From Parcubacteria group bacterium (lineage in GTDB: Bacteria; Patescibacteriota; Minisyncoccia; Phycocordibacterales; DATDWN01): 64,000 nucleotides of DNA. The translations under genes and the position numbers were made by a program. Within the stretch, counting starts at the first letter, position 1; each line of letters begins with the position of its first letter. This document shows positions 25,575 through 53,468 of the stretch, one piece after another. Below the pieces are notes generated by a model. The model ran no database searches. It had not been told where the DNA came from and saw only the letters and a list, made by a program, of their open reading frames with translations. Where the stretch lies: contig DAORIV010000001.1 of NCBI GenBank assembly GCA_035438705.1, forward strand, positions 43,593-107,592. Reading direction: 5' to 3'.

Positions 25575-25970
25575 ATGAACAAAAGACTTTTTCGAAATAC
25601 TGCTATTTTGTTTTTTATAATTGGAGGTTCTAACTATTTAGGTAATAAACTGTATTTATATTGGACTACTTGGTGGCACGATATGATAATGCATTTTATT
25701 GCGGGTGTAGTGGTAGCAATGACATCTATTTTGTTCTATCAATTATTCTTTAAAAAATCAGAATGGTCTAAAAGTAAACTAGTCATGTTTTCTGTGGCAG
25801 TTACTATGATCGTCGGTTTGCTTTGGGAGTATTTTGAACTTTATTTTGAGATAACATCATTTGCTGACGGCTTGTCTTTCTGGACTGATACTTTGTCAGA
25901 TTTATTTCTGGATACTGTAGGAGGTTATCTGGGTGCTTTATATTCTATTAAAATATCAAAAAATGAGTAA
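25575..25970 (+). CDS. hypothetical small polytopic membrane protein
   Basis: 131 aa, 3-4 predicted TM helices. Confidence 0.5.
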   Translation: MNKRLFRNTAILFFIIGGSNYLGNKLYLYWTTWWHDMIMHFIAGVVVAMTSILFYQLFFKKSEWSKSKLVMFSVAVTMIVGLLWEYFELYFEITSFADGLSFWTDTLSDLFLDTVGGYLGALYSIKISKNE

Positions 25971-27336
25971 ATTACAAATTACATTCTATTCTGGTGTTGG
26001 AACAGTAACTGGCGCGAATTTTTTACTGGAAAGCTTGAGAACAAGAATATTAGTTGATTGTGGCTTAATACAGGGAACTCCGGATTCATACATTTTAAAT
26101 AAAAAATCTTTTGAATATGATCCAAAATCTGTAGATTATTTATTTATAACCCATGCACATATGGATCACATCGGTAGGGTGTGTAAGCTAGTTAGAGAGG
26201 GGTTTAGTGGAACTATTTATTCTACAGAAGAAACAAAAAGTTTGGCGAATGTAATGATAGCTGATGCCCTGAAGGTTATGAGTATGAAAGAAAAAGATCT
26301 AAATGCTGAAGTAAAAGAGGAGCCACTATATACATTGAATGATTTTAATAAAACCATGGCATTATGGAGAACTTTGCCATATTACAAAAAAACTAAAATC
26401 AACAATGAGTTTGAAGTTTTTCTAAAGGATGCTGGACATATACTTGGATCAAGTATGTATGAGTTCTTTTTTGAGGGCAAGAAAATTGTTTTTACTGGAG
26501 ATTCAGGCAATTCTCCGGCCCCACTTTTGAAAAATACAGATAGTATTACCGATGCCGATTTTCTTATAGTTGATAGTGTTTATGGAGATAGAAATCATGA
26601 AGATAAGGAAGTTAGAGATGAGAGGTTTAAAGAAGTTCTTTTAGATACAGTAAAAAGGGGAGGGGCATTGGTTATTCCAGCTTTTTCTATTGAAAGAACT
26701 CAAGTGGTTTTGTATATTCTTAATAATTTAATTGAAGAAAAACAAATACCATCAATTCCAGTTTTTCTAGATTCTCCATTGGCACTAAAGGTGACTGATA
26801 TTTATAAGCATTTTACAAAAGATTTTAATAAAAATGTTAAAGAAGAAATATCTTCTGGAGACAATATATTTAATTTCCCAAAGTTAAATATAATCCACAG
26901 TAAAGAGGAGTCGAATGAGATATTTAAAACTCCTAATCCCAAAATTATTATTGCTGGAAGTGGAATGTCTTCTGGTGGAAGAGTGGTTGGTCACGAAATG
27001 CAGTTTTTGCCAGATCCAAATTCAACCATTTTATTAATGGGTTACCAGGCTGTAGGTACTTTAGGCAGAAGAATTCAAGAAAAGCCTTCGTATGTTGAAA
27101 TAAATGGTCAAAATATACCTGTAAAAGCAAGAATAGAGAATATTACAGGTTACTCATCTCATAAAGATTCAGATGGTATTGTGGATATGGTTTCAAATAC
27201 AGCAAATACAGTTAAGAAAGTGTTCGTGGTAATGGGGGAGCCAAAATCTGCTTTGTTTCTAGCACAAAGATTGAGAGATGAGTTGGGGGTTAGTGTAACA
27301 TACCCAGAGCAAGGCATAAACTACAAACTATTTTAA
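25963..27336 (+). CDS. MBL-fold beta-CASP family RNA-metabolising hydrolase (RNase J / CPSF73-like)
   Basis: FITHAHMDHIG metal-binding motif, beta-CASP-like length; start at MSKLQITFYSG overlaps the upstream gene by 8 nt. Confidence 0.75.
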   Translation: MSKLQITFYSGVGTVTGANFLLESLRTRILVDCGLIQGTPDSYILNKKSFEYDPKSVDYLFITHAHMDHIGRVCKLVREGFSGTIYSTEETKSLANVMIADALKVMSMKEKDLNAEVKEEPLYTLNDFNKTMALWRTLPYYKKTKINNEFEVFLKDAGHILGSSMYEFFFEGKKIVFTGDSGNSPAPLLKNTDSITDADFLIVDSVYGDRNHEDKEVRDERFKEVLLDTVKRGGALVIPAFSIERTQVVLYILNNLIEEKQIPSIPVFLDSPLALKVTDIYKHFTKDFNKNVKEEISSGDNIFNFPKLNIIHSKEESNEIFKTPNPKIIIAGSGMSSGGRVVGHEMQFLPDPNSTILLMGYQAVGTLGRRIQEKPSYVEINGQNIPVKARIENITGYSSHKDSDGIVDMVSNTANTVKKVFVVMGEPKSALFLAQRLRDELGVSVTYPEQGINYKLF

Positions 27337-27366
27337 AAAAACCGGCATATGCTGGTTTTTTTAAAA
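27335..27366. terminator. bidirectional terminator (ACCGGCATATGCTGGT hairpin with A-run / T-run)
   Basis: between convergent beta-CASP gene and rplT. Confidence 0.55.
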
Positions 27367-27367
27367 G

Positions 27368-27712
27368 TTATTTAACTTGAGCGACTATTTTCTTGAATAC
27401 TTCTGGATTTTCTGTTGCTAGAGTAGCGAGTATTTTTCTATCTAGTAGGATGCCTTTCTTCTTAAGCCCTCCCATTAGTTTAGAGTATGAAGTTCCAAGT
27501 TCCTTTGCACCGTATGAAATCTTCACATTCCACATATTTCTAGCATCGCCTTTTTTGTCTCTTCTGTGAGCAAATGCGTAAGCTCCAGCGTGGTATAGAG
27601 CATCCCAAGCTTGTCTTTCTTTAGACTTTCTACCATGTCTAAAACCTTTTGTTCTTTTTAGAACATTTTTTCTTCCTTTCAGTGCATTTACTCCTTTTTT
27701 AACTCTTGTCAT
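27368..27712 (-). CDS. rplT: 50S ribosomal protein L20
   Basis: L20 family, 114 aa. Confidence 0.93.
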   Translation of the reverse strand: MTRVKKGVNALKGRKNVLKRTKGFRHGRKSKERQAWDALYHAGAYAFAHRRDKKGDARNMWNVKISYGAKELGTSYSKLMGGLKKKGILLDRKILATLATENPEVFKKIVAQVK

Positions 27713-27767
27713 GGTATTTCTTTAAAATTTAATTACTTAATATGCTATTTAAATTATTTTATATCAA

Positions 27768-27953
27768 TTATTTGATATAAAATGCCTTGTCTTTGTTACT
27801 CATAGGGAAGTTAACTCCTCTTTTCTTTGAAAGTTGTGATCTTCGAGACTCCTTAGCATTGAAATGGTTTTGGCCAGTTTTTCTAGCTTTTATTTTTCCA
27901 TTCTTACTAACTTTCAATCTTTTAGTGAATGATTTGTTTGTTTTTGTGCTCAT
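27768..27953 (-). CDS. rpmI: 50S ribosomal protein L35
   Basis: 61-aa basic protein between infC and rplT. Confidence 0.8.
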   Translation of the reverse strand: MSTKTNKSFTKRLKVSKNGKIKARKTGQNHFNAKESRRSQLSKKRGVNFPMSNKDKAFYIK

Positions 27954-27976
27954 AATTTTGTATTCAAATTTATATT

Positions 27977-28513
27977 TTATGCTCGTTCTATCACAATACT
28001 TAGTCCCTTAGGAGACTTTTTGGCAGGGTCAGCCACTTTGTATTCCTCAGTTATTAACTTTAGAACTCTCGCCATTCTTTCCTCTAGGAACTTAATATCC
28101 ATGTATTTAGTCCTTCCTGGCAAAAATAGGTCTATTTTTATACGATTTCCTTCCTTTAGCCAGCTACTTGCTTTTTTAGCCTTTAGCTCTAGGTCGTGGT
28201 CCCCAGTACCTACTTTTACCTGTATATTCTTGACTTCTACAGTATGAGCCTTGGTTTTAGCCACCTTTAGCTTCTTGTTTTCGGCATACTGAAATTTACC
28301 ATAATCCATGATTTTTGCAACTGGTGGAATGGCTTTTGGCGATATTTCAATAAGATCCATTGCTAGCTCTCTTGCTTTGTCTAAAGCTTCTTTGAAGGAG
28401 ATAACTCCAAGGTTTGAACCGTCCTCGAGTATTACACGTAGTTCTGGTGCTTGGATTTGGTTATTTATTCTTATGTGTGTGGACAATTTATTGTTATTTA
28501 ATATTAAAATCAA
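27977..28513 (-). CDS. infC: translation initiation factor IF-3 (non-ATG start likely)
   Basis: IF-3 N and C domains (INNQIQAPELRVIL...), classic infC-rpmI-rplT operon. Confidence 0.9.
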   Translation of the reverse strand: MILILNNNKLSTHIRINNQIQAPELRVILEDGSNLGVISFKEALDKARELAMDLIEISPKAIPPVAKIMDYGKFQYAENKKLKVAKTKAHTVEVKNIQVKVGTGDHDLELKAKKASSWLKEGNRIKIDLFLPGRTKYMDIKFLEERMARVLKLITEEYKVADPAKKSPKGLSIVIERA

Positions 28514-28633
28514 TTATGAATATAACACATTTATTTGGTGTTTACAATGAACTTTAACTTTAGTCTATTGCCTACCTTTTAAAAAAGTATATGATTATAG
28601 TTATTATAAGAATTTAATATTTCATCAAACAAT

Positions 28634-29203
28634 ATGAAGAATTCACTAATTTGGGCAGGGGTTATCGTAGTTATACTAGGTCTATTTATTTGGAGGATGG
28701 GTCAGGATACAAATACAAGCTTAGACTCTACCTTGGAAACACAAGAAGTCAGCACAACAACTGAAAAAGTTACTAAAACTCAACCTGTTGCAACAAAACC
28801 TGCGCCAGTAACTGGGATGAAAGTATCTCTAGGAGGAATTTTTGCTGAAAAGGGTAACTATCAATGTGATTATGAGCAAGCTACTCAACAAAATAGAAGT
28901 AAACATGTCATTTATATTTCAAATGGAAAAATGCGAGCAGAGTTTAGGACTTCTGAGGGTCTAAATAGTGATAATACATTAATGGTTTATGATGGTAGAT
29001 ACTTGTATGTTTGGACAGAAGGTAAGTCAACTGGAACTATTTCAGAACCAAAAACTATAAAAGATCTTCCTTCTCTAATACCAGAGGATATAAGTAGTGG
29101 AAGAATACTTGGCTCAGGTATAAATAATGTAAGTTGGAACTGTCACGCTTGGTCACTTGATAAGAGTAAGCTTGTACCGCCATCTTACGTGAGGTTTAAC
29201 TAA
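28634..29203 (+). CDS. hypothetical membrane-anchored/secreted protein (189 aa)
   Basis: N-terminal TM/signal anchor, Thr-rich linker. Confidence 0.5.
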   Translation: MKNSLIWAGVIVVILGLFIWRMGQDTNTSLDSTLETQEVSTTTEKVTKTQPVATKPAPVTGMKVSLGGIFAEKGNYQCDYEQATQQNRSKHVIYISNGKMRAEFRTSEGLNSDNTLMVYDGRYLYVWTEGKSTGTISEPKTIKDLPSLIPEDISSGRILGSGINNVSWNCHAWSLDKSKLVPPSYVRFN

Positions 29204-29245
29204 TAATACCATAAAACCACCTCTACGGTGGTTTTATGGTATTAT
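29203..29245 (+). terminator. terminator with long stem (ATACCATAAAACCACC-TCTA-CGGTGGTTTTATGGTAT)
   Basis: core AAAACCACCTCTACGGTGGTTTTA repeats at 31587. Confidence 0.6.
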
Positions 29246-29274
29246 TAGAATATTAAAATTTAATTAATCAAAAT

Positions 29275-31581
29275 ATGAATTTTAGGATTCTCTTTTTATT
29301 TGCGTTCATACTTTTAACAACACCATTTCATGTTCAAGCTAAAGATTTGTACGTAGACCCAAATGGAAATGATGCTGTTTCTTATGCAAACAACTCAGCA
29401 TCGACTCCTTGGAGAACTATCGGTCGTGCGGCATGGGGAAGTACGAATAGAGAGGCAAGAAATGGTTCTGAGGCCGCTAGAGCAGGAGATATTGTTATAG
29501 TTAATGCTGGCACATATACAGGAGTCGGAACGAACTCTAGAAATGAAATTTTGTATTACCAAGAAAACAATGGTACAGCTGGGAATCCTATTACGTTCAG
29601 AGCAAATGGTACTGTAAATCTAACTCAGACAGGGGCGGGTGCAATGATAGGTTCATACAGAAGAAATTATATTGTATGGGATGGTTTCACAATAAATGAA
29701 GCAACTGCAGCATCTGTGGCTGATACTGGCCCTGTTACAGTGTATGAGTGTACTGGATGTGTATTGCAAAACTTAAATATAAATGGGAACGGAGATGGAA
29801 ACGGCAGAATGGACAACCACAATGGAATTAGAATTGAAGCATCAAATAATATAACTATAAAAAATAATAGAATTCAAAATGTTTACACAGATCACAATGT
29901 TTATAACGGTGCTTGTGTTATGACATACTCCAGTCAGGGTCTGACTATTGAAAACAACCATTTTTCTGAATGTGGTTCAGGTGTGTTTATAAAAGGAGGT
30001 CCGTTCGGATCTCAAATCACAAACACTTCATATATAAGATACAACCTTTTTGAAAATGTGTATGAAAATAGAGGAGGGGATCTTTCTGGCGGTTGTATAG
30101 CACTTCATGCTGGGGCACCATATTCTGCATCAGCACCAATTCTTATATATCAAAACATCATGAAAAATTGTGGTTGGGCAGGTGTGAGAATATGGGCTTT
30201 TGATAGCACTAATCCGCTAAACAATCCGACTAACGCAAAAATATTTAACAATGTAATAGATAATGCTACAAACGGTATTTGGGTTACAGGAGGCCTTTTA
30301 ACAAATGCTGGTCATCAGTTTTGGAATAACATTATTACAAATACTACTGGAGATGCTATAGCATTTGGAACAACCCCATCAGAAAATGTAAAGAGTCGTT
30401 TTGATTCTGAACACAACCTATTCTATAGCAATTCTAGTATTGCTCAAGATGCTCCAGGAACTAGATATACTTTGGCAACATGGAAAGCAACCGGCCAAGA
30501 TTCTGCTTCGCCTGAGTCTGTAAACGCAAATCCACTATTTATAGGTCCATCATCAAATAATTATAGACTTCAGTCTGGTTCACCAGCATCATCTCTGGGT
30601 AGAGCTATATATGGAATTGGTGGTGTAACTGGTGCTGTAATACCTGTTGGAGCATATATAACAGGCAGTGAGCTGATTGGAATATCTAATGGAGGCAATA
30701 TACAAAACTCTAATCCAATTACACCAGTAACACCAGCCCCGACAGCAGATATTAGGATAAATAATTCCTCAACGGGTGTAAGTGTTAATGTGGGAACTTC
30801 AGTCGTTATTTCTTGGACATCAACTAATGCTACTTCTTGTACTGTTTCACCTAGCTCATGGAGTGGAACAGCTGGGACACAAACTGTCACCCCTATTTCA
30901 AGTGCCACTTATACCATTTCTTGTTCTGGTGCGGGTGGTTCGGTAACTGATTCTGTTTCAGTGACCGTAAATCCTGTTGTTGTAGATCCGGTACCAGTTA
31001 CTCCAGTTGCAACATCTACAGAAGAGTGGGTATTTTGTTCGAATGAAAATGGAACATGTACTTTTTCTGGAACTAAGGATGTTAGATATGGAGCACAAAA
31101 TTCATATAATATAAGAACAGTAACTGGTTCAATAGGATGTAACAATGATGTTTTTGGAGACCCTATTTTAAATGTCGTAAAGCAATGTCAATATAAAAAT
31201 ATTGTCACAAATACTACACCCACAACTACAACTCCAACAACTCCGACTGCCACAACAACTACTAGTAATGATAATTTAATTAAGGTTGGAGATAGAATAA
31301 AAACAACAGCTACAATAAATGTAAGATCATCTGCTGGGGGAAGAATTGTGGGTACTCAAAGAACTGGTAGGGTAGGAAGTGTTACCACAGGACCTTCTAC
31401 AGTTAGTAGGAGGGATTGGTTTAGAGTTAATTTTGAATCAGGAGTAGATGGTTGGGTTGCGGTGGATTATATAACTAAAATTTCTACAACCACACTTTCT
31501 CAAGAAGAAATATTAAATCAAATTGCAAATCTGTTCATACTTATTAAACAACTTCAACAACAACTTAATAATCTAAGATAA
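29275..31581 (+). CDS. secreted multidomain protein: signal peptide, right-handed parallel beta-helix (pectate-lyase-like), PKD/Ig-like domain, T/P linker, SH3b-like domain, C-terminal amphipathic helix
   Basis: beta-helix repeats (NNRIQN, NNHFSE, IMKN...), WTSTNATSCTVS..YTISCSGAGGS Ig-like, WFRVNFESGVDGWV SH3b-like. Confidence 0.65.
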   Translation: MNFRILFLFAFILLTTPFHVQAKDLYVDPNGNDAVSYANNSASTPWRTIGRAAWGSTNREARNGSEAARAGDIVIVNAGTYTGVGTNSRNEILYYQENNGTAGNPITFRANGTVNLTQTGAGAMIGSYRRNYIVWDGFTINEATAASVADTGPVTVYECTGCVLQNLNINGNGDGNGRMDNHNGIRIEASNNITIKNNRIQNVYTDHNVYNGACVMTYSSQGLTIENNHFSECGSGVFIKGGPFGSQITNTSYIRYNLFENVYENRGGDLSGGCIALHAGAPYSASAPILIYQNIMKNCGWAGVRIWAFDSTNPLNNPTNAKIFNNVIDNATNGIWVTGGLLTNAGHQFWNNIITNTTGDAIAFGTTPSENVKSRFDSEHNLFYSNSSIAQDAPGTRYTLATWKATGQDSASPESVNANPLFIGPSSNNYRLQSGSPASSLGRAIYGIGGVTGAVIPVGAYITGSELIGISNGGNIQNSNPITPVTPAPTADIRINNSSTGVSVNVGTSVVISWTSTNATSCTVSPSSWSGTAGTQTVTPISSATYTISCSGAGGSVTDSVSVTVNPVVVDPVPVTPVATSTEEWVFCSNENGTCTFSGTKDVRYGAQNSYNIRTVTGSIGCNNDVFGDPILNVVKQCQYKNIVTNTTPTTTTPTTPTATTTTSNDNLIKVGDRIKTTATINVRSSAGGRIVGTQRTGRVGSVTTGPSTVSRRDWFRVNFESGVDGWVAVDYITKISTTTLSQEEILNQIANLFILIKQLQQQLNNLR

Positions 31582-31616
31582 AAAATAAAACCACCTCTAC
31601 GGTGGTTTTATTTTTG
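31581..31616. terminator. bidirectional terminator AAAACCACC-TCTA-CGGTGGTTTTATTTTT
   Basis: identical core to the 29215 terminator; flanked by convergent genes. Confidence 0.6.
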
Positions 31617-32654
31617 GATGTGTTGAGTGATGCTGTAAATTGGTGAGATTATTGATATGGAGACGAACCCGATTATAATACCTACAATTATCATCATGAT
31701 TGGCTCAATTAGACTCGAGATATTTTTGGTGAATTCATCTATTTCCTGTTCATAATTTTTTGAGACGTAAATCAAAGATTCCGAAAGATTCCCGCTTTTT
31801 TCACCAGATGAAATTAATGCTGTCATTTCGTGAGGGAATAAAAAATTATTTTTTTGAGTATAAGAAGATAGTTGTTCGCCTTTTTCTGATATAGAAAGTA
31901 ATTTCTTTAGTTCTTTTTTGTATATGATATTTTGAGTGGTCCTTTCGGTTACAAGTATGCCTTCACTAAGAGACATACCACTCTGGAGTAGAACCCCGAG
32001 AGTCCTTGTTATGTTGCTTAATATGTATTTTTTTATAACATCACCTATAACAGGTGTAGATAGTGTTTTGTAGAAAGTAAAATATCTCACTCTTTTGTTG
32101 TTTTTAAGTATATATAATAATCCCAAGATAATTAATATTGTTAAGAGTAACAATATTAACCAATTATTTAGCACAAAACTACTAGTGTAGATTAGTATTT
32201 TTGTTGATGTCGGTATCTCAATGTTCATAGTTTTAAAAACCGGGGTAATTTTGGGAAATAAGTATACTATTAGAAAAATAGTAATACACAGTGTAGATAA
32301 ACCGATAACTATTGGATAAATAAGAGAGTTTATTAATTTTTTTCTGATCAAGTTTTTCTTTGTGATTTCCTCTGTGAGATATTCAAGATTTTCACTTAAG
32401 GTTCCACTTGATTCTCCATAATCAATAATATTTATACTAAACTCATTAAATACTTTTGGAAACCTAGCAAGACTTTTTGATAATTTTTTACCATTAGATA
32501 TGTCGGTGATTAGATGATTAATAATGGTTGAATGTTTTTTAGTAGACTGTTTTTGTATAGTACTTAAACTATCTATCAAACCCAAACCAGCTTTTGTAAG
32601 AAAAGTGAGTCTTTTGAAAAAAAATATCTGGTCACTATTTTTCATATTATTCAT
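31608..32654 (-). CDS. GspF/PilC-family platform protein, short (ComGB-like)
   Basis: T2SSF-like domains, 3 TM segments, 348 aa. Confidence 0.7.
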   Translation of the reverse strand: MNNMKNSDQIFFFKRLTFLTKAGLGLIDSLSTIQKQSTKKHSTIINHLITDISNGKKLSKSLARFPKVFNEFSINIIDYGESSGTLSENLEYLTEEITKKNLIRKKLINSLIYPIVIGLSTLCITIFLIVYLFPKITPVFKTMNIEIPTSTKILIYTSSFVLNNWLILLLLTILIILGLLYILKNNKRVRYFTFYKTLSTPVIGDVIKKYILSNITRTLGVLLQSGMSLSEGILVTERTTQNIIYKKELKKLLSISEKGEQLSSYTQKNNFLFPHEMTALISSGEKSGNLSESLIYVSKNYEQEIDEFTKNISSLIEPIMMIIVGIIIGFVSISIISPIYSITQHIQK

Positions 32655-33867
32655 TTGTTACTCTGAGTATTTCATCTATGGTTGTGACTCCATTCATAAC
32701 TTTTTCCAGCCCATCCATTAGTAGTGTTTTTGTATTGTTTCCTAAAGCAATTTTTTTCAATTCATTTAAACTTTTTTTATCATGAATTGCTTCTCTAATT
32801 TTATCGTCAATTATTAGTATTTCGTTAATTGAAATTCTTCCAGAGTATCCGCTCATACCACATCTTTTGCAACCCTCACCACGATATAAATTTATTACAT
32901 CTTCTGTCCTGTGGGATTTAATGAATTTTTTGTCTATATCGTTAGGTTTATATGTTGATTTACAGTATGTACATATTTTCCTAACCAATCTTTGTCCAAT
33001 TACAAGACTTAGTGTGGATGAAATTAAATACTCTTCAACACCCATATCAATTAGTCTGGGTATTGTGCCTATGGCATCATTTGTATGAATGGTCGATAAG
33101 AGTAGATGTCCTGTGAGAGCCGTATTTACTGCAATTCCAGCTGTTTCTTTGTCTCTTATTTCTCCAACCATTATAATATTGGGGTCTTGGCGCAAAATAC
33201 TCCTAAGTCCGTTTGCAAAACCAAGTCCATTTTTAGTATTAACTTGTATTTGTTCTACATCATCTATTGCATATTCAATAGGGTCTTCTATGGTCACAAT
33301 TGAAACATCAGGGGAATTAAGTAAATTTATTAAAGAATATAAGGTTGTAGTTTTTCCGGAACCTGTTGGTCCAGTAGCTAGTACCATGCCGTGAGGTTTT
33401 TTAAGGCATCTTATAATTTTTTCTTGATCACTATCACTAAAACCTAATTGTTTTAGCGTCACTTTTTGATTGTCCGTTGATAAAAGTCTCATTACTACAT
33501 TTTCTCCATAGTATGTTGGTACCATAGAAACTCTAATATCAACAAAATTATCTGGCTCAACAATAGAATATCTAAAACGTCCATCTTGTGCAGTTTGATG
33601 TTCATCAGTGCGTAGTTTACAGAGAACTTTAATTCTGGAAATTATTTCTTCATGAGTTTTCTTTGGGAGAAAAAATGGTTTTTGTAAAACCCCATCAATT
33701 CTAAATCTTACTTTTACAGTATCTGAGTTTGGGTCAATGTGGATATCTGAGACCTTATTTTTAATTGCTTTTTCAATTAGGTATTCAATTAGGTTTATGA
33801 TAGAAATATCTAGGTTTTCTTCAATTTCCTTTTCTAGTTGAGCCTGTTTTTCCTCAATGTTGGGCAT
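32647..33867 (-). CDS. GspE/PilB-family secretion ATPase, short form lacking N-terminal domain (ComGA-like)
   Basis: Walker A ATGPTGSGKTTTLYS, Asp box, Walker B, C-terminal CxxC pairs; 406 aa. Confidence 0.8.
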   Translation of the reverse strand: MPNIEEKQAQLEKEIEENLDISIINLIEYLIEKAIKNKVSDIHIDPNSDTVKVRFRIDGVLQKPFFLPKKTHEEIISRIKVLCKLRTDEHQTAQDGRFRYSIVEPDNFVDIRVSMVPTYYGENVVMRLLSTDNQKVTLKQLGFSDSDQEKIIRCLKKPHGMVLATGPTGSGKTTTLYSLINLLNSPDVSIVTIEDPIEYAIDDVEQIQVNTKNGLGFANGLRSILRQDPNIIMVGEIRDKETAGIAVNTALTGHLLLSTIHTNDAIGTIPRLIDMGVEEYLISSTLSLVIGQRLVRKICTYCKSTYKPNDIDKKFIKSHRTEDVINLYRGEGCKRCGMSGYSGRISINEILIIDDKIREAIHDKKSLNELKKIALGNNTKTLLMDGLEKVMNGVTTIDEILRVTNE

Positions 33868-33942
33868 GTTGGGTAGGGTTATTCACCGAACTCTACTCCC
33901 ATTCAAAGGTAAACACAAGTATTTGATGATACAATTGTCTTT

Positions 33943-36900
33943 ATGAAAAAAGTATATTTTATTGTATTTATATTGGGAGCATTATTGTTTAATAATTCAG
34001 TTTATTCTGCAACTGCGACATTTCAACACGGGGTCAATGGTTATACGGGTGGAGAGGACTTAGAAATAAGTAGTGATAACCCAAATACCAATTATATTTC
34101 AGGAGGAAGTAATTATTCTGATAGAAGTGGACTGCGTTTCTGTGGTTCGAAGTGTAATAAAATACTCTTACGTTTTAATTCTCTTGGAATAACGGGCAAC
34201 ATAACAAATGTTAGGCTCGAACTAAAAGAAAGTGGAAGACAAGGTGGGGCAAGTAATATATATGCATATAAAATATCTAAAAATGACTGGGTAAATAGTC
34301 AAACTACTTGGAATACATATAAGACTGGAAGCAATTGGGCATCTGCAGGAGGTGATATAGGTTCAGTATTATCTACAATATCTGCACCTGGGACAAACAA
34401 TTGGGCTAGTTTTGATCTCGGTGCAAACTGGACTATTACAGAATTACAACAAAATGGTATATTAATTGATACTGATATACCCGGATGGAATTATGTCTGG
34501 TTTTATACGAATGAGGCAAGTAATGTAACTGATAGACCAAAACTTATTGTTACCTATGATGGAACAACTCCCACAACCCCAACAACTCCAGCTCCAACTG
34601 TTACAATTTCTGCTTCACCTACATCTATAACTTCAGGTGGAAGTTCAACACTAACTTGGTCTTCAACAAATGCGACATCTTGTACTGCAAGTGGTTCATG
34701 GACTGGAAGTAGAGGAACTTCAGGAACACAATCAACTGGAACACTTACAACAAACTCAACTTTTACACTTTCATGTAGTGGAGCTGGGGGCACAACGAAT
34801 CAGTCTGTCACAGTAATTATCAATTCAACAACACCAGTAACACCAACATCTGGAGGATTAGAAATAGATCTTTCTTATGTAAATCAAAGTTCTCCAGAGT
34901 TTATAAGATTTAAGTCTGTAGTAGATGCTGCGTTAGCTGGAAATCCTGATTATGGTTTTTCAGGCGAACATGCTGCTCTTATGTATAAAATTACTGGTGA
35001 TGTAAGGTATGCTGATTATGCCATCGGTTTTATTGAGAATTGCCAAAATTCAAGATACGCAGGTGCTAATTGTGGAGTACAAGGTGCTGAAGCTTTAATT
35101 TCTAATGGAAACAGACCTCCAGTTGCTGGGGATTCGTATCTTGAAGTTGGTGATATTATAGGTTCTCTTGCACTTGTATATGATTGGGCTGGGTCTAGAA
35201 TGACACAATCTCAGAAAACAAGATGGGCTAATTATGCAAACCAGACAATTTATAATGTTTGGAATCCGAATCAAGCTTCATGGGGAGGAGTATCTCATCC
35301 CTGGACAGGATGGTCTATAAATAATCCTGGAAATAACTATTATTACAGTTTCGTTCAAGCGACAATGTACTGGGCTCTTGCAACAAATGATACAACACTA
35401 CTTTCTTTTGTTAGAAATCAAAAATTACAACCTTTGGTAAATTATTTCAATCAAATCCCAGGTGGAGGAAGTCTTGAAGGAACTGGTTACGGAACTGCTC
35501 ATATGAGAATGTTTCATCTGTATCAGGTCTGGAAAGATTCAACAGGAGAGGATCTTGCAAATGCGAATAGCCACTTAACAGATAGTATAAGACTTTGGTT
35601 ACATCAAACAACACCAAATAGAGCTTATTATGCACCAATAGGAGATTTATCTAGAAGTTCTTTCCCAGATCTATTTGATTATCATAGAAGACTTGTGCTT
35701 GAAGCTCGTAATCTAACAAATAATAACTCTGCAAAAGATACTGCTTCATGGTGGTTAAATAATATTTCTGTGACACAAATGTCTAGACGTATTGATTCTC
35801 AATATGATTTATTACCGAAAGGAATAAATACTAGTGTTGCGCCAAATGAACCTCTGTCATATAGAGCAAGCGGGATAGGTAGAGTATTTGCTAGAACAGG
35901 TTGGGATACAAATGCATTATGGATGTCATTTGCTGCAGGAAAATATAATGAAAGTCACGCACATCAAGATCAAGGATCGTTTACTTTAGCAAACAATGCA
36001 TGGCTTGCTGTTACAAATAATATTTATACGAATAGTGGAATTGAGCAGTCAACCGATTACCACAATATTATCAGATTTGTTCAAAATGGATCAGTAGTCC
36101 CACAAAGAGAGGGTACTGAATCTGTGATGACAGTAAATCAACTTGGAACAAATGGTGAAGTAGATGTAACTGGAAATATCACTCCAGCTTATGGAGGAAG
36201 TTCAGCTGTCCAAAGTTGGGTTAGAAATATTAGATTTTCTGGAAGGAAACTCACAGTTAATGATGGCTTTTCTGTGGCAGCAGGGACTCAAGCAATATTT
36301 CAAATTCATGTACCTGTTCAACCTGTCGTGAGTGGAAACACAATAACAGCAGGTAATTTAAGAGTAAGAGTCCTTGTTCCAGCATCTCCTACGATAACAG
36401 TAGTAAATCAAGGTAGGTATAGAATTGATATAAGTGGTGGAACAAATCAATATGTTGTCGAACTTTCGGATCAAGCAATTACTGGTACGACGATAATACC
36501 AGCACCCCCAGTTTCAGGTAGTCCAACAACTCCCACAACCCCAACAACTCCAGCTCCAACTGTTACAATTTCTGCTTCACCTACATCTATAACTTCAGGT
36601 GGAAGTTCAACACTAACTTGGTCTTCAACAAATGCGACATCTTGTACTGCAAGTGGTTCATGGACTGGAAGTAGAGGAACTTCAGGAACATTGTCTGTAA
36701 CCCCCACAACAACATCAACATATACATTGTCTTGTACAGGCATAGGCGGAAGTATAAATCAATCTACTACAGTTACAGTGAATACTGTGATTCCGACAAC
36801 ACCAGCATCAACACTATTTACATCAGGTCAAAGAGTTCAAACAACAGCCAACCTAAATGTTAGAGCAACTGCTTCATCAAACGGAACACTACTAGGCACG

Positions 36901-38799
36901 CAAAGCACTAGTGCATTAGGAACAATCACAGGAACATCAGTATATGCAAACAGTATAAACTGGTGGAATGTTAACTATGATACTGGAGTAGATGGGTGGT
37001 CATCAGAGCAATTCTTGCAAAATTATGTTGCGCCTACTACTCCAACAACACCTACTGCTCCGACACAACCGACAACACCAAGTGGCACAGGTAGTACTTT
37101 CTACCCTCCAATAAATACTAGTGACACATCAGATGCTCCTCTAATTAACTTTGCTGAAACATGGGCAAGAAACTGGAACTTTGGTGGACACAGTGTAACT
37201 ACTACAAACTGGAGTGGTTGGTGGGATTACAGTGATACTTCTTACGAGCCTTGGTTGTTCGATAGAGCATCAGTTGGTTACTATTTATACAAGAGAACAA
37301 ATGATTCTAAATGGTTAGATAAGTTTATGTCTGACTTTGCTTGGTACAGAGCAAGAATAGATGCAAATGGATTCTTTACACCTACATCCTATGACGATAA
37401 CAAATATGCTTACGTTAGACCATTTCTTTTATATGAAAGACAAACAGGTGACAATCAATATAGAAGTCAAGCACTAAATATTTATAATATGTGGCTTAGA
37501 GAATTTTCTAACACATATAGTACTTCTATTGGACTTTGGACTGAAAGAGAAATTGGTTTAGCTCTTGAAGTTGCTGTAGATTATTACGATCTTACAGGAA
37601 GTCAGGCAGCGCTTACTCGTGCGAATGCACTTGTTACTCAGTGGTCAGTTATGTCGGCAAATAATGGAGGTGCACCACTTCACACTGTAACTCAACATGA
37701 AGGTGGTGGGGGATCTCAAATGATTACTAGTCCGTGGATGAGTGCACTTTATTTTCAAGCTGCATATAAACTTTATGCATTAACCGGTAATACAGAAGTG
37801 TTACAACAAATAAGTAGATATGCTGATTGGATGGAGCAATATGGTTACTTCTCTGGAAATACAGTGGGGGTTTCAAGTGTTCCTACTGCAGCATATTATT
37901 TAGCTGGCCCAAACGGTCCTTACACTGCCGAGACACCTAGTACAGGAGATTTTTCTCACTGTTTAGATATCTCAAATATGATTAAGTTCGCAGTGGTTGC
38001 AAAACAAGCTCTTGGAGAGTCAACTACAGCAGTTGCAAACAGACAAGCACAATTAAAAACATGCGCAGCATATTATTTTGCTGACGCAACAAGAACTACA
38101 ACAAGTCTTCCAAGATACAGAGTAAATCCGGCCAGATCATTTAACTGGTGGGTGCGTTCAACAGTTGAGTACAGAACATCTGGAACAAACTCAACTCCAA
38201 TACCTACTCCAACAGTAACACCAACAATACCACCCACCACAACAACTCCAACTACACCTACATCAGGAGGAGCAGGTGGTGGAAGTTCAGCACCAAGTAC
38301 ACCATCTACACCAGTAACACCTACAACACCGAGTGCAGGGTCAGGAGCTGGGGTAGGTGGAGGAGGCGGAGTGCAAACTCCTAGCTTACCAAGTACAGGT
38401 GGCGGAGGAACATCTTCCACACCTAAACCAGTTATCACTCGCAATTTGTCACCAGGAACAAAGGGAACTGATGTAACACAATTACAAAACTTCCTAATCT
38501 CTACAGGATATCTAGCATCAGGACTAAACACAGGATACTATGGTAATGCTACCAAAGAAGCTGTACAGAAGTATCAATGTGCCACACTTAAACTATGTTC
38601 AGGAACACAAACAACTAATGGTTACGGAGTAGTAGGAACAAAGACAAGAACAGCACTAACTACAACAAACACTCCTGTGCAAACCATAACCTCTACACTT
38701 ACTGCAGAACAAAGAGTTGCAATACAGAAACAGATTAGTGATTTACTTGTAGTTGTCGCACAACTTATGGAGCAACTAAAAGCAATGCAGGGGAACTAG
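33943..38799 (+). CDS. giant (1618 aa) secreted multidomain protein: signal peptide, two near-identical PKD/Ig-like modules, heparinase II/III-like polysaccharide-lyase region, SH3b-like domain, second alpha/alpha-toroid-like region, T/P/G-rich linkers, C-terminal peptidoglycan-binding domain and amphipathic helix
   Basis: ESHAHQDQGSFTL (heparinase II/III-like H-x-H-x-D-x-GSF), PG_binding_1-like LSPGTKGTDVTQLQNFLISTGYL...TKEAVQKYQ, repeated Ig-like WSSTNATSCTASGSW modules. Confidence 0.7.
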   Translation: MKKVYFIVFILGALLFNNSVYSATATFQHGVNGYTGGEDLEISSDNPNTNYISGGSNYSDRSGLRFCGSKCNKILLRFNSLGITGNITNVRLELKESGRQGGASNIYAYKISKNDWVNSQTTWNTYKTGSNWASAGGDIGSVLSTISAPGTNNWASFDLGANWTITELQQNGILIDTDIPGWNYVWFYTNEASNVTDRPKLIVTYDGTTPTTPTTPAPTVTISASPTSITSGGSSTLTWSSTNATSCTASGSWTGSRGTSGTQSTGTLTTNSTFTLSCSGAGGTTNQSVTVIINSTTPVTPTSGGLEIDLSYVNQSSPEFIRFKSVVDAALAGNPDYGFSGEHAALMYKITGDVRYADYAIGFIENCQNSRYAGANCGVQGAEALISNGNRPPVAGDSYLEVGDIIGSLALVYDWAGSRMTQSQKTRWANYANQTIYNVWNPNQASWGGVSHPWTGWSINNPGNNYYYSFVQATMYWALATNDTTLLSFVRNQKLQPLVNYFNQIPGGGSLEGTGYGTAHMRMFHLYQVWKDSTGEDLANANSHLTDSIRLWLHQTTPNRAYYAPIGDLSRSSFPDLFDYHRRLVLEARNLTNNNSAKDTASWWLNNISVTQMSRRIDSQYDLLPKGINTSVAPNEPLSYRASGIGRVFARTGWDTNALWMSFAAGKYNESHAHQDQGSFTLANNAWLAVTNNIYTNSGIEQSTDYHNIIRFVQNGSVVPQREGTESVMTVNQLGTNGEVDVTGNITPAYGGSSAVQSWVRNIRFSGRKLTVNDGFSVAAGTQAIFQIHVPVQPVVSGNTITAGNLRVRVLVPASPTITVVNQGRYRIDISGGTNQYVVELSDQAITGTTIIPAPPVSGSPTTPTTPTTPAPTVTISASPTSITSGGSSTLTWSSTNATSCTASGSWTGSRGTSGTLSVTPTTTSTYTLSCTGIGGSINQSTTVTVNTVIPTTPASTLFTSGQRVQTTANLNVRATASSNGTLLGTQSTSALGTITGTSVYANSINWWNVNYDTGVDGWSSEQFLQNYVAPTTPTTPTAPTQPTTPSGTGSTFYPPINTSDTSDAPLINFAETWARNWNFGGHSVTTTNWSGWWDYSDTSYEPWLFDRASVGYYLYKRTNDSKWLDKFMSDFAWYRARIDANGFFTPTSYDDNKYAYVRPFLLYERQTGDNQYRSQALNIYNMWLREFSNTYSTSIGLWTEREIGLALEVAVDYYDLTGSQAALTRANALVTQWSVMSANNGGAPLHTVTQHEGGGGSQMITSPWMSALYFQAAYKLYALTGNTEVLQQISRYADWMEQYGYFSGNTVGVSSVPTAAYYLAGPNGPYTAETPSTGDFSHCLDISNMIKFAVVAKQALGESTTAVANRQAQLKTCAAYYFADATRTTTSLPRYRVNPARSFNWWVRSTVEYRTSGTNSTPIPTPTVTPTIPPTTTTPTTPTSGGAGGGSSAPSTPSTPVTPTTPSAGSGAGVGGGGGVQTPSLPSTGGGGTSSTPKPVITRNLSPGTKGTDVTQLQNFLISTGYLASGLNTGYYGNATKEAVQKYQCATLKLCSGTQTTNGYGVVGTKTRTALTTTNTPVQTITSTLTAEQRVAIQKQISDLLVVVAQLMEQLKAMQGN
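34565..34730 (+). repeat. intragenic direct repeat copy 1 (~166 bp, PKD/Ig-like module)
   Basis: apparently identical to 36526..36691 (by reading, and by identical antisense ORF translations). Confidence 0.85.
36526..36691 (+). repeat. intragenic direct repeat copy 2 (~166 bp)
   Basis: apparently identical to 34565..34730. Confidence 0.85.
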
Positions 38800-38805
38800 A
38801 GAAAT

Positions 38806-38834
38806 AAAAAAACCGCCACATAGCGGTTTTTTTA
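38806..38834. terminator. bidirectional terminator AAACCGCCACATAGCGGTTT with A/T runs
   Basis: between the giant gene (+) and the malic enzyme gene (-). Confidence 0.55.
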
Positions 38835-39989
38835 TTTGCTAACCTTTTTTACTGCATTTGCTACAGCTTTAGCAACTCTTTTATCAAATGGACTTGGAAT
38901 AATGTAACTAGGGGATAGCTCCTTGTAAGTGACTAGTTTAGCTATAGCTAAAGCTGATGCTAACTTCATTTCGGTGGTTATTTGTTTTGCACCACTATCT
39001 AATGCGCCCCGGAAAATCCCAGGAAATACTAAAACATTATTTATTTGGTTTGGGTAATCACTTCTGCCTGTTCCAAAAACTTTTATTTTGGTTTTCTTTG
39101 CATTCTCCATACTTATCTCTGGATTAGGATTTGCCAAAGCAAGAACTATTGGGTCTTTGGCCATTTTTTCTATCCATTCAGGTTTTAAAATATCTGCAAC
39201 TGAAACACCAATAAAAACATCAGCATCTTCCAGCACTTGTTCCAGGTTTCCTTCCATTGTCTTACTATTTGTTTTATCAGCAATAGCTTTTTTGTATTTG
39301 TTTAAGTCAGTTCTTTTTCTATGTAAGGCACTTTTACTATCTAACATGATAATATTCTTTGCATTCACGCCATAATCAATAAGTAGATTACATATTGCTA
39401 TTGCTGCAGAACCAGCACCGTTAATTATAGTTTTAATACTGTTCTTATCTTTTTTAACGACTTTTAATGCGTTTATTAATGAAGCAAGAACCACAATTGC
39501 TGTGCCATGCTGATCGTCGTGCATTACAGGTATGTTCAATTCTTTTTTTAGTCGTTCTTCTATCTCAAAACATTTTGGCGCTGAAATATCCTCTAAATTT
39601 ATTCCACCAAATCCAACTGAGATTATTTTGATTGTTCTAATAATTTCTTCTGTATCTTGTGTGTCTAAACAAATAGGGTAGGCATCTATTCCAGCAAACT
39701 CTTTAAATAATATTGCCTTACCTTCCATAACAGGCAGAGCACCGTAAGGTCCAATATTTCCAAGTCCCAGAACTGATGACCCATCGGATATTACAGCCAC
39801 AGAGTTTGATTTAACTGTGAGTTTATTAGCTAAATCTTTATTTTTTTTTAAAACTCTTGATACTTCTGCTATCCCTGGTGTGTATGCAACAGATAGCTCG
39901 TATTTATTAGTTACTTTTAATTTAGAATAAGTACCAATTTTACCTTTAATTTTTTTATGCAATTCAAGTGATTTTTTAAAATAATTCAT
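38832..39989 (-). CDS. NAD(P)-dependent malic enzyme (short bacterial form)
   Basis: YTPGIAEV, ISDGSSVLGLGNIGPYGALPVMEGK malic-enzyme motifs; start at MNYFKK (ATG 39987-39989); upstream in-frame extension to 40055 runs into repeat/hairpin sequence. Confidence 0.8.
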   Translation of the reverse strand: MNYFKKSLELHKKIKGKIGTYSKLKVTNKYELSVAYTPGIAEVSRVLKKNKDLANKLTVKSNSVAVISDGSSVLGLGNIGPYGALPVMEGKAILFKEFAGIDAYPICLDTQDTEEIIRTIKIISVGFGGINLEDISAPKCFEIEERLKKELNIPVMHDDQHGTAIVVLASLINALKVVKKDKNSIKTIINGAGSAAIAICNLLIDYGVNAKNIIMLDSKSALHRKRTDLNKYKKAIADKTNSKTMEGNLEQVLEDADVFIGVSVADILKPEWIEKMAKDPIVLALANPNPEISMENAKKTKIKVFGTGRSDYPNQINNVLVFPGIFRGALDSGAKQITTEMKLASALAIAKLVTYKELSPSYIIPSPFDKRVAKAVANAVKKVSK

Positions 39990-39992
39990 ACT

Positions 39993-40003
39993 GTGTTGGC
40001 GGG
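39993..40003. repeat. 11-bp direct repeat TGTGTTGGCGG (copy of the tRNA-Ser 3-prime end/flank; second copy 43133..43143)
   Basis: region reads GGCCCGCCAACACA on the minus strand, versus GGCTCCGCCAACACA at the intact tRNA-Ser 3-prime end. Confidence 0.6.
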
Positions 40004-40074
40004 CCACTCGGGTTAAGTACCGTCCGAGTGAGACGTTGTAAGGATATTTTAACACATTTATTGACGGTCAATTG

Positions 40075-45907: not shown

Positions 45908-45962
45908 TTTGACTATTGCAAAATCAAGTATAAAATTTAATAAGATTTTTGGGAGGACTATT

Positions 45963-46145
45963 ATGCCTGAAGTCCAGTCATGTGATTGTAGGCAGGTAGG
46001 AAACGACGAAATGTTTGACCTCGGTCAGTCCTCAAGGGAACTGAGGAGTGTAAAATCCACAAGAAGGGGAATTCTGGTTTGTTTTTTTGTAGTATTTCTT
46101 ATTGCTTTTGGGATTATAACAAAAAGAATTCCCGTTCCTTTCTAA
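45963..46145 (+). CDS. hypothetical ~60-aa tail-anchored protein in GC-richer insert between pilM and pilN (could instead be an sRNA)
   Basis: ATG at 45963 within ORF 45870; C-terminal TM; followed by a strong terminator. Confidence 0.25.
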   Translation: MPEVQSCDCRQVGNDEMFDLGQSSRELRSVKSTRRGILVCFFVVFLIAFGIITKRIPVPF

Positions 46146-46148
46146 GTT

Positions 46149-46199
46149 AGCTCTGCACAAAATATTCGTAAGTATTTTGTGCAGAGCTTTCTGTTTTTA
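46149..46199 (+). terminator. strong terminator (17-bp stem AGCTCTGCACAAAATAT/ATATTTTGTGCAGAGCT + T-run)
   Basis: long perfect inverted repeat then TTTCTGTTTTT. Confidence 0.65.
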
Positions 46200-46253
46200 T
46201 ACACAGTTAATATAGTTTTTTGGGATAGCATATACTATAATTACGTATATATT

Positions 46254-46862: not shown

Positions 46863-46863
46863 A

Positions 46864-47418: not shown

Positions 47419-47422
47419 AAAT

Positions 47423-47746: not shown

Positions 47747-47760
47747 TAACACAGCAAAAT

Positions 47761-49485: not shown

Positions 49486-49508
49486 TTAAATTACTTTATA
49501 CTCAAGTT

Positions 49509-49901: not shown

Positions 49902-49903
49902 AA

Positions 49904-50971: not shown

Positions 50972-50988
50972 AATAAGAATACTTAAAT

Positions 50989-52197: not shown

Positions 52198-52398
52198 AAC
52201 TTCCAAATCTGGCGAACTTCTTGTTTCGAGTTTGTAAATTTTCGTCAACGTATATCTAATACGTTTTCTCAGATTTATAAACTCTCAACATCGAATTTCA
52301 TTCAGATTTGAAAGTTTTACTTAAAAATTGGAATTATGTGTTGGGAAGATAAATCAGATTATGAAAGTTTTATCAAATTAAGATATAATTATCTGAAT

Positions 52399-53446: not shown

Positions 53447-53468
53447 TATTTATCTTATATAAGTTATC

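What the first reader, a model, noticed from the sequence alone, without database searches (positions are those of the whole stretch)
31480..38799. Shared C-terminal amphipathic helix on both giant surface proteins
Protein 29275-31581 ends ...QIANLFILIKQLQQQLNNLR. Protein 33943-38799 ends ...QISDLLVVVAQLMEQLKAMQGN. Both follow the pattern Q-I-x-(N/D)-L-(hydrophobic x4)-x-Q-L-x-(Q/E)-Q-L at the extreme C-terminus. This is a candidate sorting or anchoring signal, or a recognition tag for the adjacent GspE/GspF-like machinery.
Basis: seen in the sequence. Interest (0 to 1): 0.55.

Follow-up and report, generated by a model that had tools for sequence, protein, structure and literature searches.

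The report
Conserved C-terminal helix on Parcubacteria surface enzymes
Two large exported proteins of an uncultured Parcubacteria bacterium end in the same conserved 25-30-residue helix, always placed after a cell-wall-binding domain, and it looks like a coiled-coil association or retention handle, not a secretion tag for the neighbouring pilus-type ATPase.

Summary
Both ORFs (29275-31581 and 33943-38799) end in a related helix. A tail profile scores them 53-55 bits, against 23 bits or less for noise. The same tail ends at least 12 distinct proteins from close relatives, always 4-6 residues before the stop codon. Every member with an intact N-terminus has a Sec signal peptide.

The tail is rare: 10 hits among 1.84 billion representative proteins. 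No Pfam or NCBIfam model covers it.

It comes in two module types. Type A is an SH3b fold plus tail. Type B is PG_binding_1, a Thr-rich linker, then the tail. These modules sit on varied glycan-enzyme or lectin-like N-terminal parts and can be swapped.

AlphaFold2 predicts one confident helix after a flexible linker. Hydrophobic residues keep an a/d heptad register over about 3.5 heptads. There is no transmembrane stretch and no basic cluster.

Related helices occur after signal peptides or internally in other proteins, again near PG_binding_1. Adjacency to the GspE/GspF-like pair holds at only some loci, and those are syntenic.

Best reading: an extracellular coiled-coil association handle completing a wall-binding retention module. 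The sorting-signal and secretion-tag readings are not supported. Interest is moderate.

The parts
29275..31581 (+). 768-aa exported right-handed beta-helix protein (P0001). Order of parts: signal peptide, beta-helix, Ig-like domain, Cys-containing domain, SH3b fold, type-A tail.
   Evidence: ORF and translation. It is identical to P0001, which NCBI names 'right-handed parallel beta-helix repeat-containing protein [Parcubacteria group bacterium]'. The homologs are beta-helix/NosD proteins.
29275..29340 (+). Predicted Sec signal peptide (MNFRILFLFAFILLTTPFHVQA, followed by KD). The boundary is approximate.
   Evidence: Read from the sequence. A crude hydrophobic h-region screen supports it.
31294..31479 (+). 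SH3b-like beta-barrel directly upstream of the tail (aa ~674-735).
   Evidence: The AF2 model has strands at model residues 11-72 with pLDDT ~95. Foldseek finds SH3 folds, including the SH3b domains of peptidoglycan hydrolases 9a7d, 2evr, 2hbw, 4krt and 4q2w. Sequence matches are weak: SH3_3 at E 0.017 and TIGR04211 at 2.8e-5.
31492..31578 (+). Type-A C-terminal tail TLSQEEILNQIANLFILIKQLQQQLNNLR. It consists of an N-cap followed by a helix of about 25 residues.
   Evidence: Sequence and motif uniqueness. The AF2 helix spans model residues 80-104 with pLDDT 86-95. Heptad register.
33943..38799 (+). 1618-aa exported multi-domain protein (HRH26617.1, 'peptidoglycan-binding protein'). Order of parts: signal peptide, Ig-like repeats, heparinase-like region, SH3b-like segment, GH127-like alpha/alpha region, Gly/Thr/Pro linker, PG_binding_1, type-B tail.
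33943..34011 (+). Predicted Sec signal peptide (MKKVYFIVFILGALLFNNSVYSA). The boundary is approximate.
   Evidence: Read from the sequence and supported by the crude h-region screen.
38464..38577 (+). PG_binding_1 match (aa 1508-1545). The domain probably extends to about aa 1575.
   Evidence: Pfam PF01471 at 1.2e-7, and at 8.2e-9 when only the C-terminal piece is scanned.
38695..38796 (+). Type-B C-terminal tail TLTAEQRVAIQKQISDLLVVVAQLMEQLKAMQGN.
   Evidence: Sequence and motif uniqueness. The AF2 helix spans model residues 95-124 with pLDDT ~90.
31608..32654 (-). GspF/PilC-like platform protein (348 aa). This is a neighbour and is not shown to be functionally linked.
   Evidence: Pfam T2SSF at 3.9e-47. 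NCBIfam GspF scores 250 bits, below the 424-bit cut-off.
32647..33867 (-). GspE/PilB-like ATPase (406 aa) that lacks the N-terminal domain. It is transcribed divergently from the big protein across a 75-bp gap. This is a neighbour and is not shown to be functionally linked.
   Evidence: Pfam T2SSE at 4.4e-125. The NCBIfam GspE match starts at profile position 92 and scores 513 bits, below the 630-bit cut-off.

Best explanation
The tail is a self-contained, capped alpha-helix of about 25-30 residues at the end of a C-terminal module. The module is either SH3b + tail (type A) or PG_binding_1 + flexible Thr-rich linker + tail (type B).

Proposed mechanism:
1. The proteins are exported by Sec. (Inferred from signal peptides.)
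2. The SH3b or PG_binding_1 domain binds the cell wall. (Inferred from domain family.)
3. The terminal helix, which keeps a continuous a/d heptad pattern, associates with the same helix of other copies or of other tail-bearing enzymes as a short coiled coil. This would multimerise the wall-binding domains to raise avidity, and would hold glycan-active enzymes together on the cell surface. (Inferred.)

What is shown: the module is conserved, modular and swappable; it is always terminal in this lineage; a helix with a heptad pattern is predicted; the peptide is under purifying selection.

What is inferred: oligomerisation, wall binding and surface retention.
For: 1. The tail is a real homologous module. 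It ends at least 12 distinct proteins, all 4-6 residues before the stop codon.

2. The search patterns did not include the stop codon. Even so, no chance match showed this arrangement: 16 of 17 genome-collection hits and 42 of 45 metagenome hits were chance matches, almost all in short or out-of-frame ORFs, and the few inside ORFs of more than 130 aa are unrelated proteins.

3. The domain immediately upstream is always a wall-binding type.
- SH3b fold: AF2 pLDDT ~95, Foldseek hits to SH3b domains of peptidoglycan hydrolases, and an SH3_3 match in L021a.
- PG_binding_1.

4. The modules are shuffled. P0128 shares the window big protein's catalytic region but ends in a type-A module. The N-terminal parts include beta-helix, Laminin_G, PL14-like and heparinase-like domains.

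5. AF2 predicts a single confident helix after a lower-confidence linker in both types.

6. The a/d positions are almost invariant and hydrophobic over 3.5 heptads: I, I, L/I, I/V, L, L. An S/T-x-x-E N-cap is conserved, and many tails end in a Gly-Asn C-cap.

7. The nearest PDB sequence matches are designed Alphabody coiled coils.

8. Related helices in other exported proteins lie 40-60 aa from PG_binding_1 but at N-terminal or internal positions. The helix therefore works as an extracellular structural unit and not as a terminal processing signal.

9. Synonymous codon differences exceed non-synonymous ones in the tail.
Against: - No oligomer could be modelled or measured.
- The central pentad (LFILI, LLVVV and similar) is hydrophobic even at the solvent-facing f position. 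This is atypical for simple dimers or trimers and specific to the C-terminal subfamily.
- Polar positions N/D (c), Q (c) and Q (g) are conserved more strictly than a generic coiled coil requires. This hints at a specific partner surface.
- The strict terminal position within this lineage is not explained by oligomerisation alone.
- Wall binding by these SH3b and PG_binding_1 domains is untested. They could bind a host cell's wall instead of the cell's own wall.
Confidence: 0.45

Rival explanations
1. Docking tag for a distinct receptor, analogous to a dockerin. The helix would plug diverse enzymes onto a scaffold such as the type IV pilus, an S-layer protein or a membrane-anchored receptor.
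For: - The tail sits on many different enzyme-like N-terminal parts, as dockerins do.
- Surface polar residues are conserved and a hydrophobic belt surrounds the middle of the helix.
- Several tail genes lie next to a GspE/GspF-like pair or near pilus genes.
Against: - No candidate partner carrying a related helix was found. In 2147 ORFs from about 155 kb of this lineage, everything but the known tails scored 6 bits or less.
- Adjacency to pilus genes was not seen in the available flanks at the PfkB/FBA and RecA sites.
- Where adjacency exists, it lies within one syntenic region that also holds the main pilus cluster.
Confidence: 0.2
2. In-plane amphipathic membrane anchor, as in the C-terminal helices of low-molecular-weight penicillin-binding proteins. 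The helix would lie on the outer leaflet of the cytoplasmic membrane and tether the exported protein.
For: - It is a terminal helix on Sec-exported proteins.
- Its hydrophobic moment is moderate (0.37-0.49) and it has a hydrophobic pentad.
- There is a weak match to TIGR04211 SH3_and_anchor, in which an SH3 domain is followed by a helical region and a membrane anchor.
Against: - Net charge is -1 to +1. The polar face is Gln/Asn/Glu-rich, not Lys/Arg/aromatic-rich.
- Hydrophobic residues follow a narrow a/d stripe typical of coiled coils.
- Related helices occur internally and in several copies per protein.
- The wall-binding domain upstream already provides a retention mechanism.
Confidence: 0.15
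3. Secretion or recognition tag read by the adjacent GspE/GspF-like ATPase/platform pair.
For: Tail genes flank the pair in the window. A tail gene is divergent from the ATPase gene in L005 and L007.
Against: - All tail proteins have Sec signal peptides, and none gives a prepilin N_methyl match in Pfam.
- In the syntenic locus L025 the pair has no adjacent tail gene.
- The PfkB/FBA and RecA sites show no such genes in the available flanks.
- From established knowledge, Patescibacteria are generally described as lacking an outer membrane, so a second translocation step is not expected. Known type II secretion substrates also carry no linear C-terminal signal.
Confidence: 0.05
4. Classical C-terminal sorting signal that is cleaved and attached by a sortase- or exosortase-like enzyme.
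For: The tail is at the extreme C-terminus of several unrelated exported proteins per genome.
Against: - There is no transmembrane stretch (longest hydrophobic run 5-6 residues) and no basic tail.
- No NCBIfam sorting-domain model matches.
- The helix has its own N- and C-caps, and relatives occur at non-terminal positions.
Confidence: 0.04

Closest known systems
Short coiled-coil (leucine/isoleucine-zipper) association helices, including designed Alphabody scaffolds (PDB 6zie, 5mj3)
   Same: Capped helix starting S/T-x-E-E-I-x-x-Q-I-A, with hydrophobic a/d positions over about 3.5 heptads. These are the best PDB sequence matches to the tail profile.
   Different: The tail has a fully hydrophobic central pentad (positions d-e-f-g-a) and conserved N/D and Q positions. 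Its oligomeric state is unknown. The resemblance is probably one of structural type and not of ancestry.
TIGR04211 'SH3_and_anchor' family (E. coli YgiM type)
   Same: An SH3 domain is followed directly by a helical segment near the C-terminus of an exported protein. There is a weak match across the SH3 end plus helix.
   Different: The score is 19-24 bits against a cut-off of 65. The tail proteins have no C-terminal transmembrane anchor and are large multi-domain enzymes.
C-terminal cell-wall-binding modules of monoderm surface enzymes and endolysins (SH3b, PG_binding_1)
   Same: A wall-binding domain sits at the C-terminal end of modular, glycan-active exported proteins. Foldseek hits include such SH3b domains.
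   Different: Here an extra conserved terminal helix always follows the binding domain. No Pfam or NCBIfam model describes it.
Dockerin modules of cellulosomal enzymes
   Same: A small C-terminal module is shared by many enzymes with different catalytic parts.
   Different: No dockerin match was found in Pfam at E of 0.001 or better, and the duplicated calcium-binding loop-helix segments are not evident in the tail sequence. No cohesin-like partner was found. The resemblance is functional analogy only.
Braun lipoprotein (Lpp) trimeric coiled coil
   Same: A short extracytoplasmic coiled coil involved in connecting envelope layers to peptidoglycan (established knowledge).
   Different: Lpp is a lipoprotein whose C-terminal Lys is covalently bound to peptidoglycan. 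The tails end in R, GN, IN or QN and are appended to large enzymes.

Membership tests
Tripartite C-terminal sorting signals (LPXTG/sortase, PEP-CTERM/exosortase and relatives) | Hydrophobic transmembrane stretch of about 15-20 residues after the signature motif | tested here: not met
   The longest uninterrupted hydrophobic run is 5-6 residues in all 7 tails analysed.
Tripartite C-terminal sorting signals (LPXTG/sortase, PEP-CTERM/exosortase and relatives) | Cluster of basic residues at the extreme C-terminus | tested here: not met
   Net charge of the tails is -1 to +1. They end in LR, KGN, QGN, AQN or KIN.
Tripartite C-terminal sorting signals (LPXTG/sortase, PEP-CTERM/exosortase and relatives) | Match to a curated sorting-domain model | tested here: not met
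   An NCBIfam scan at E up to 10 of both proteins and both C-terminal pieces gave no sorting-signal model.
Tripartite C-terminal sorting signals (LPXTG/sortase, PEP-CTERM/exosortase and relatives) | Co-occurrence with a dedicated processing enzyme in the genome | not tested
   Only 64 kb of the genome plus short related contigs were available.
Coiled-coil association helix | Continuous heptad pattern with hydrophobic a and d positions over at least 3 heptads | tested here: met
   The a/d positions are I, I, L/I, I/V, L, L and nearly invariant across 11 non-redundant tails.
Coiled-coil association helix | Segment forms a single uninterrupted alpha-helix | tested here: met
   The AF2 helix spans model residues 80-104 (pLDDT 86-95) in type A and 95-124 (pLDDT ~90) in type B.
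Coiled-coil association helix | Helices actually associate, as homo- or hetero-oligomers | not testable with these tools
In-plane amphipathic membrane anchor (PBP5/MinD type) | High hydrophobic moment with a cationic or aromatic polar-apolar boundary | tested here: inconclusive
   The hydrophobic moment is moderate at 0.37-0.49. Net charge is about 0, there are few aromatic residues, and the polar face is Gln/Asn-rich.
TIGR04211 SH3_and_anchor | Score at or above the curated cut-off (65 bits) | tested here: not met
   The score is 19.4 bits for the whole protein and 23.8 bits for the C-terminal piece.
TIGR04211 SH3_and_anchor | C-terminal transmembrane anchor | tested here: not met
   No transmembrane stretch is present.
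Type IV pilin / type II pseudopilin substrates of GspE/GspF-type machines | N-terminal class III (prepilin) signal with an N-methylation motif | tested here: not met
   Pfam finds no N_methyl match in any tail protein. The real pilins of the window do match it. The N-termini of the tail proteins look like Sec signal peptides.
Dockerin | Duplicated calcium-binding loop-helix segments (Pfam Dockerin_1) | tested here: not met
   No dockerin match was found in the Pfam scans of the tail proteins at E of 0.001 or better, nor in the C-terminal pieces at E up to 10.

The most novel reading that the evidence does not exclude
The tail is a lineage-specific docking module. It would assemble several glycan-degrading enzymes into a multi-enzyme surface complex, either by hetero-association of type-A and type-B helices or by attachment to a pilus or S-layer receptor. 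This would give an ultra-small Parcubacteria cell a cellulosome-like attack or feeding apparatus built on a single terminal helix. The conserved polar positions and the hydrophobic belt specific to the C-terminal subfamily are what a specific interface would look like. The evidence does not exclude this reading.
Probability: 0.15. Interest if true: 0.7.

Novelty: new variant of a known kind. Interest (0 to 1): 0.4.

Why it matters
How uncultured Patescibacteria hold large enzymes and adhesins on their surface is poorly understood. This work defines a compact terminal module that is easy to recognise: a wall-binding domain followed by a capped helix. The module marks a set of exported glycan-active proteins in one Parcubacteria lineage and is missing from domain databases. 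It can be tested with a 30-residue peptide. If it mediates assembly or retention, it could be used to list the surface enzymes of these organisms. It also corrects an appealing but unsupported link to the neighbouring pilus-type ATPase.

Tried and rejected
1. Two word-index homology searches returned nothing: one with the tail alignment and one with the PG_binding + tail piece. The index cannot handle these short, compositionally biased queries. Searches were parameter errors.

2. A degenerate DNA-pattern scan of 185,579 species genomes gave 17 hits, of which one was real (L021).

3. The same kind of scan of metagenome contigs gave 45 hits, of which three were real.

4. A scan of viral contigs gave one hit, a chance match. 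A phage origin is therefore not supported.

5. A search for weaker helix relatives, meaning possible partner proteins, in the window and seven related loci found none.

6. The AF2 model of the type-B module folded only the helix with confidence. The PG_binding_1 part was poor because the alignment had two sequences.

7. Two literature searches found no description of this tail.

8. Explanations considered and rejected: chance similarity, recent duplication within the window, transmembrane tail anchor, T1SS-type signal (the proteins have Sec signal peptides) and modular pilin (no prepilin motif).
Full report
**Observation**

The two ORFs exist as described. They end in ...TLSQEEILNQIANLFILIKQLQQQLNNLR* and ...TLTAEQRVAIQKQISDLLVVVAQLMEQLKAMQGN*.

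Several tests show the match is not chance:
- Among all 243 stop-to-stop ORFs of 60 aa or more in the window, a strict and a loose motif each hit only these two, both at the extreme C-terminus.
- A degenerate DNA pattern that omits the stop codon hits only these two sites. It hit none in 100 shuffles.
- A profile HMM of the tails scores them 52.8 and 54.8 bits. The best noise score is 22.7 bits.
- The two tails are only about 55% identical at the DNA level, so they are not a recent internal duplication.

**Organism and setting**

The small protein is identical to a protein that NCBI names as a right-handed parallel beta-helix repeat protein of a Parcubacteria group MAG. The big one is HRH26617.1, 'peptidoglycan-binding protein [Parcubacteria group bacterium]'.

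Between the two genes, on the minus strand, lie a GspF/PilC-like platform gene and a GspE/PilB-like ATPase gene that lacks the usual N-terminal domain.

The window also carries a complete type IV pilus cluster at about 44.8-57 kb. It includes PilM, PilO, PilB, PilT, PilC, pilins and, by position, a probable prepilin peptidase gene (not scanned).

A crude screen found cleavable Sec-type signal peptides only on the two tail proteins.

**The tail is a real, recurrent, narrowly distributed module**

Of the 120 best homologs of the small protein, most are beta-helix proteins of about 490 aa without any extension. Only P0002, P0003 and P0114 end with the tail.

Further members came from several sources:
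- A second large protein in locus L005.
- A 1235-aa protein, plus a frameshifted second copy, in L021.
- P0121/P0128, P0123 and P0124 from an exhaustive profile search.
- L057 and L058 from a metagenome scan.

The exhaustive search of 1.84 billion representative proteins gave only 10 proteins at E of 0.001 or better.

The DNA patterns used for the collection scans did not include a stop codon. Every true match nonetheless lies 4-6 codons before the stop of a long ORF. The 16 of 17 genome hits and 42 of 45 metagenome hits that were chance matches are almost all in short or out-of-frame ORFs, and the few inside longer ORFs are unrelated proteins. This is an independent confirmation of the terminal position.

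All ten members with an intact N-terminus, including the frameshifted L021b, start with a Sec-type signal peptide.

In the tail codons, synonymous differences outnumber non-synonymous ones: 10-15 against 4-9 of 28 codons among most type-B pairs. The peptide is therefore under purifying selection.

**Anatomy**

There are two module types.
- Type A: a small beta-barrel followed within about 10 residues by ...S/T-x-E-E-I-x-N-x-I-A-N-hhhh-I-K-Q-L-Q-x-Q-L...
- Type B: PG_binding_1, then a Thr-rich linker of about 25 residues, then ...E-Q-R-x-x-I-Q-K-Q-I-x-D-L-L-h-h-V-x-Q-L-M-x-Q-L-K-x-x-Q-G-N.
- The window has one of each.

The type-A barrel is modelled with pLDDT ~95. It matches SH3 folds, including the SH3b domains of peptidoglycan hydrolases and an endolysin. 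Sequence support is weak: SH3_3 and TIGR04211.

PG_binding_1 is significant in all type-B members scanned.

The N-terminal parts differ widely. They include beta-helix/NosD-like, Laminin_G_3, PL14-like, heparinase-like, GH127-like, fn3 and Ig-like domains.

P0128 shares the catalytic region of the window's big protein but ends in a type-A module instead of a type-B one. The modules are therefore exchangeable.

**The helix**

AF2 predicts one continuous helix in both types. It spans model residues 80-104 at pLDDT 86-95 in type A, and 95-124 at pLDDT ~90 in type B. A lower-confidence linker precedes it.

Hydrophobic residues occupy a and d heptad positions without a break for about 3.5 heptads. 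They are nearly invariant across 11 non-redundant tails.

The helix has a conserved S/T-x-x-E N-cap, and many tails end in Gly-Asn.

The longest hydrophobic run is 5-6 residues, net charge is -1 to +1, and the hydrophobic moment is moderate at 0.37-0.49.

Two features go beyond a generic coiled coil:
- The pentad at positions d-e-f-g-a is hydrophobic throughout.
- N/D at one c position and Q at a c and a g position are almost invariant.

The closest PDB sequence matches are designed Alphabody coiled coils. No Pfam or NCBIfam family covers the tail.

**Relatives that are not C-terminal**

The exhaustive search also found weaker matches (E 5e-7 to 6e-4) in other exported proteins. There the helix sits directly after the signal peptide (P0122, P0126/P0129, P0127) or internally and in several copies (P0122, P0125).

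In P0122, P0125 and P0129 the helix lies 40-60 residues upstream of PG_binding_1. These helices have polar residues in the central pentad.

Whether they are homologous or only of the same structural type is uncertain. Either way, they show this helix type working as an extracellular unit beside peptidoglycan-binding domains regardless of position.

**Link to the ATPase/platform pair**

- A tail gene is divergent from the ATPase gene in the window, in L007 (which is syntenic with the window, including the malic enzyme gene) and in L005.
- In L025, also syntenic, the pair lies directly beside the malic enzyme gene. The only tail gene there sits 1.8 kb away, beyond the L20/L35/IF3 genes.
- In L021 the tail genes are on the other side of the malic enzyme gene.
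- No pilus-type genes appear in the available flanks at the PfkB/FBA site (L001-4, L026, L058) or the RecA site (L073-75).
- The loci that do show adjacency are versions of one chromosomal neighbourhood in close relatives, and that neighbourhood is rich in pilus genes anyway.

Given the Sec signal peptides and the absence of prepilin motifs, a role as a tag for this machinery is not supported. A full phylogenetic profile could not be run.

**Mechanism**

The best-supported reading is that the tail is an extracellular coiled-coil association handle that completes a C-terminal wall-binding module. Sec exports the protein, the SH3b or PG_binding_1 domain binds peptidoglycan, and the helix associates with like helices. 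This would raise avidity and cluster enzymes on the surface.

Module conservation, terminal position, helix prediction, heptad pattern and purifying selection are shown. Association and wall binding are inferred.

Rivals, in order of likelihood:
1. A docking tag for a distinct receptor.
2. An in-plane membrane anchor.
3. A tag for the GspE/GspF-like pair.
4. A cleaved sorting signal.

**Verdict**

The tail is a new, uncatalogued variant of a known kind of element: a short coiled-coil-type helix attached to cell-wall-binding domains. It is restricted to a narrow Parcubacteria lineage. Interest is moderate.

Noticed in passing
window 44780-57000: A complete type IV pilus gene cluster is present. 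PilM, PilO, PilB with an MshEN domain, PilT, PilC and three pilins are confirmed by Pfam. The prepilin peptidase at 53992 and the minor pilins are guessed from position and N-termini. This cluster is separate from the short ATPase/platform pair at 31608-33867.
   Followed up: partly
window 31608-33867 (- strand): The GspE-like ATPase (406 aa) and GspF-like platform protein (348 aa) are both shorter at the N-terminus than the reference models, with matches starting at profile positions ~92 and ~59. In this genome no pilin gene is attached to them, whereas the L005 ortholog pair is followed by two pilin-like genes.
   Followed up: partly
L021 4324-4700: A small ORF (signal peptide plus SH3 end) carries a second tail that is broken by a frameshift: ...TDEDYRQN, then in another frame NIYLIIKYLQERIAGQN*. 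It is either a pseudogene or an assembly error.
   Followed up: partly
L021 (CAYRHZ010000002.1): The record title says Candidatus Saccharibacteria. However, the locus is syntenic with the window, and its PilM scores 681 bits against the window's PilM. The organism therefore looks like a close relative of this Parcubacteria MAG, and the label may be wrong.
   Followed up: no
window 34590-34850 and 36570-36830 (big protein), 30760-31000 (small protein); coordinates approximate: Near-identical Ig-like repeats of about 85 aa (…TISASPTSITSGGSSTLTWSSTNATSCTASGSWTG…) are shared within and between the tail proteins. P0135 is a 1702-aa variant of the big protein with one extra repeat, so repeat number varies between strains.
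   Followed up: partly
window 25933-40055 compared with L025, L007, L021: Gene order is conserved (beta-CASP, L20/L35/IF3, hypothetical, GspF, GspE, malic enzyme). The large tail-bearing genes, however, are inserted at different points in each genome. The PfkB/FBA site recurs in three loci and a RecA site was seen once. Together these look like hot spots for surface-protein gene turnover.
   Followed up: partly
P0138 (cluster of the big protein): One metagenomic variant of the big protein reads through a frameshift within the tail (…QLMEQLKAICRYLTSQ…). This is probably a sequencing error.
   Followed up: no
window 28634-29203: A 189-aa protein with an N-terminal membrane anchor has no family match. 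It is conserved in L025 at the same position, upstream of the GspF-like gene.
   Followed up: no
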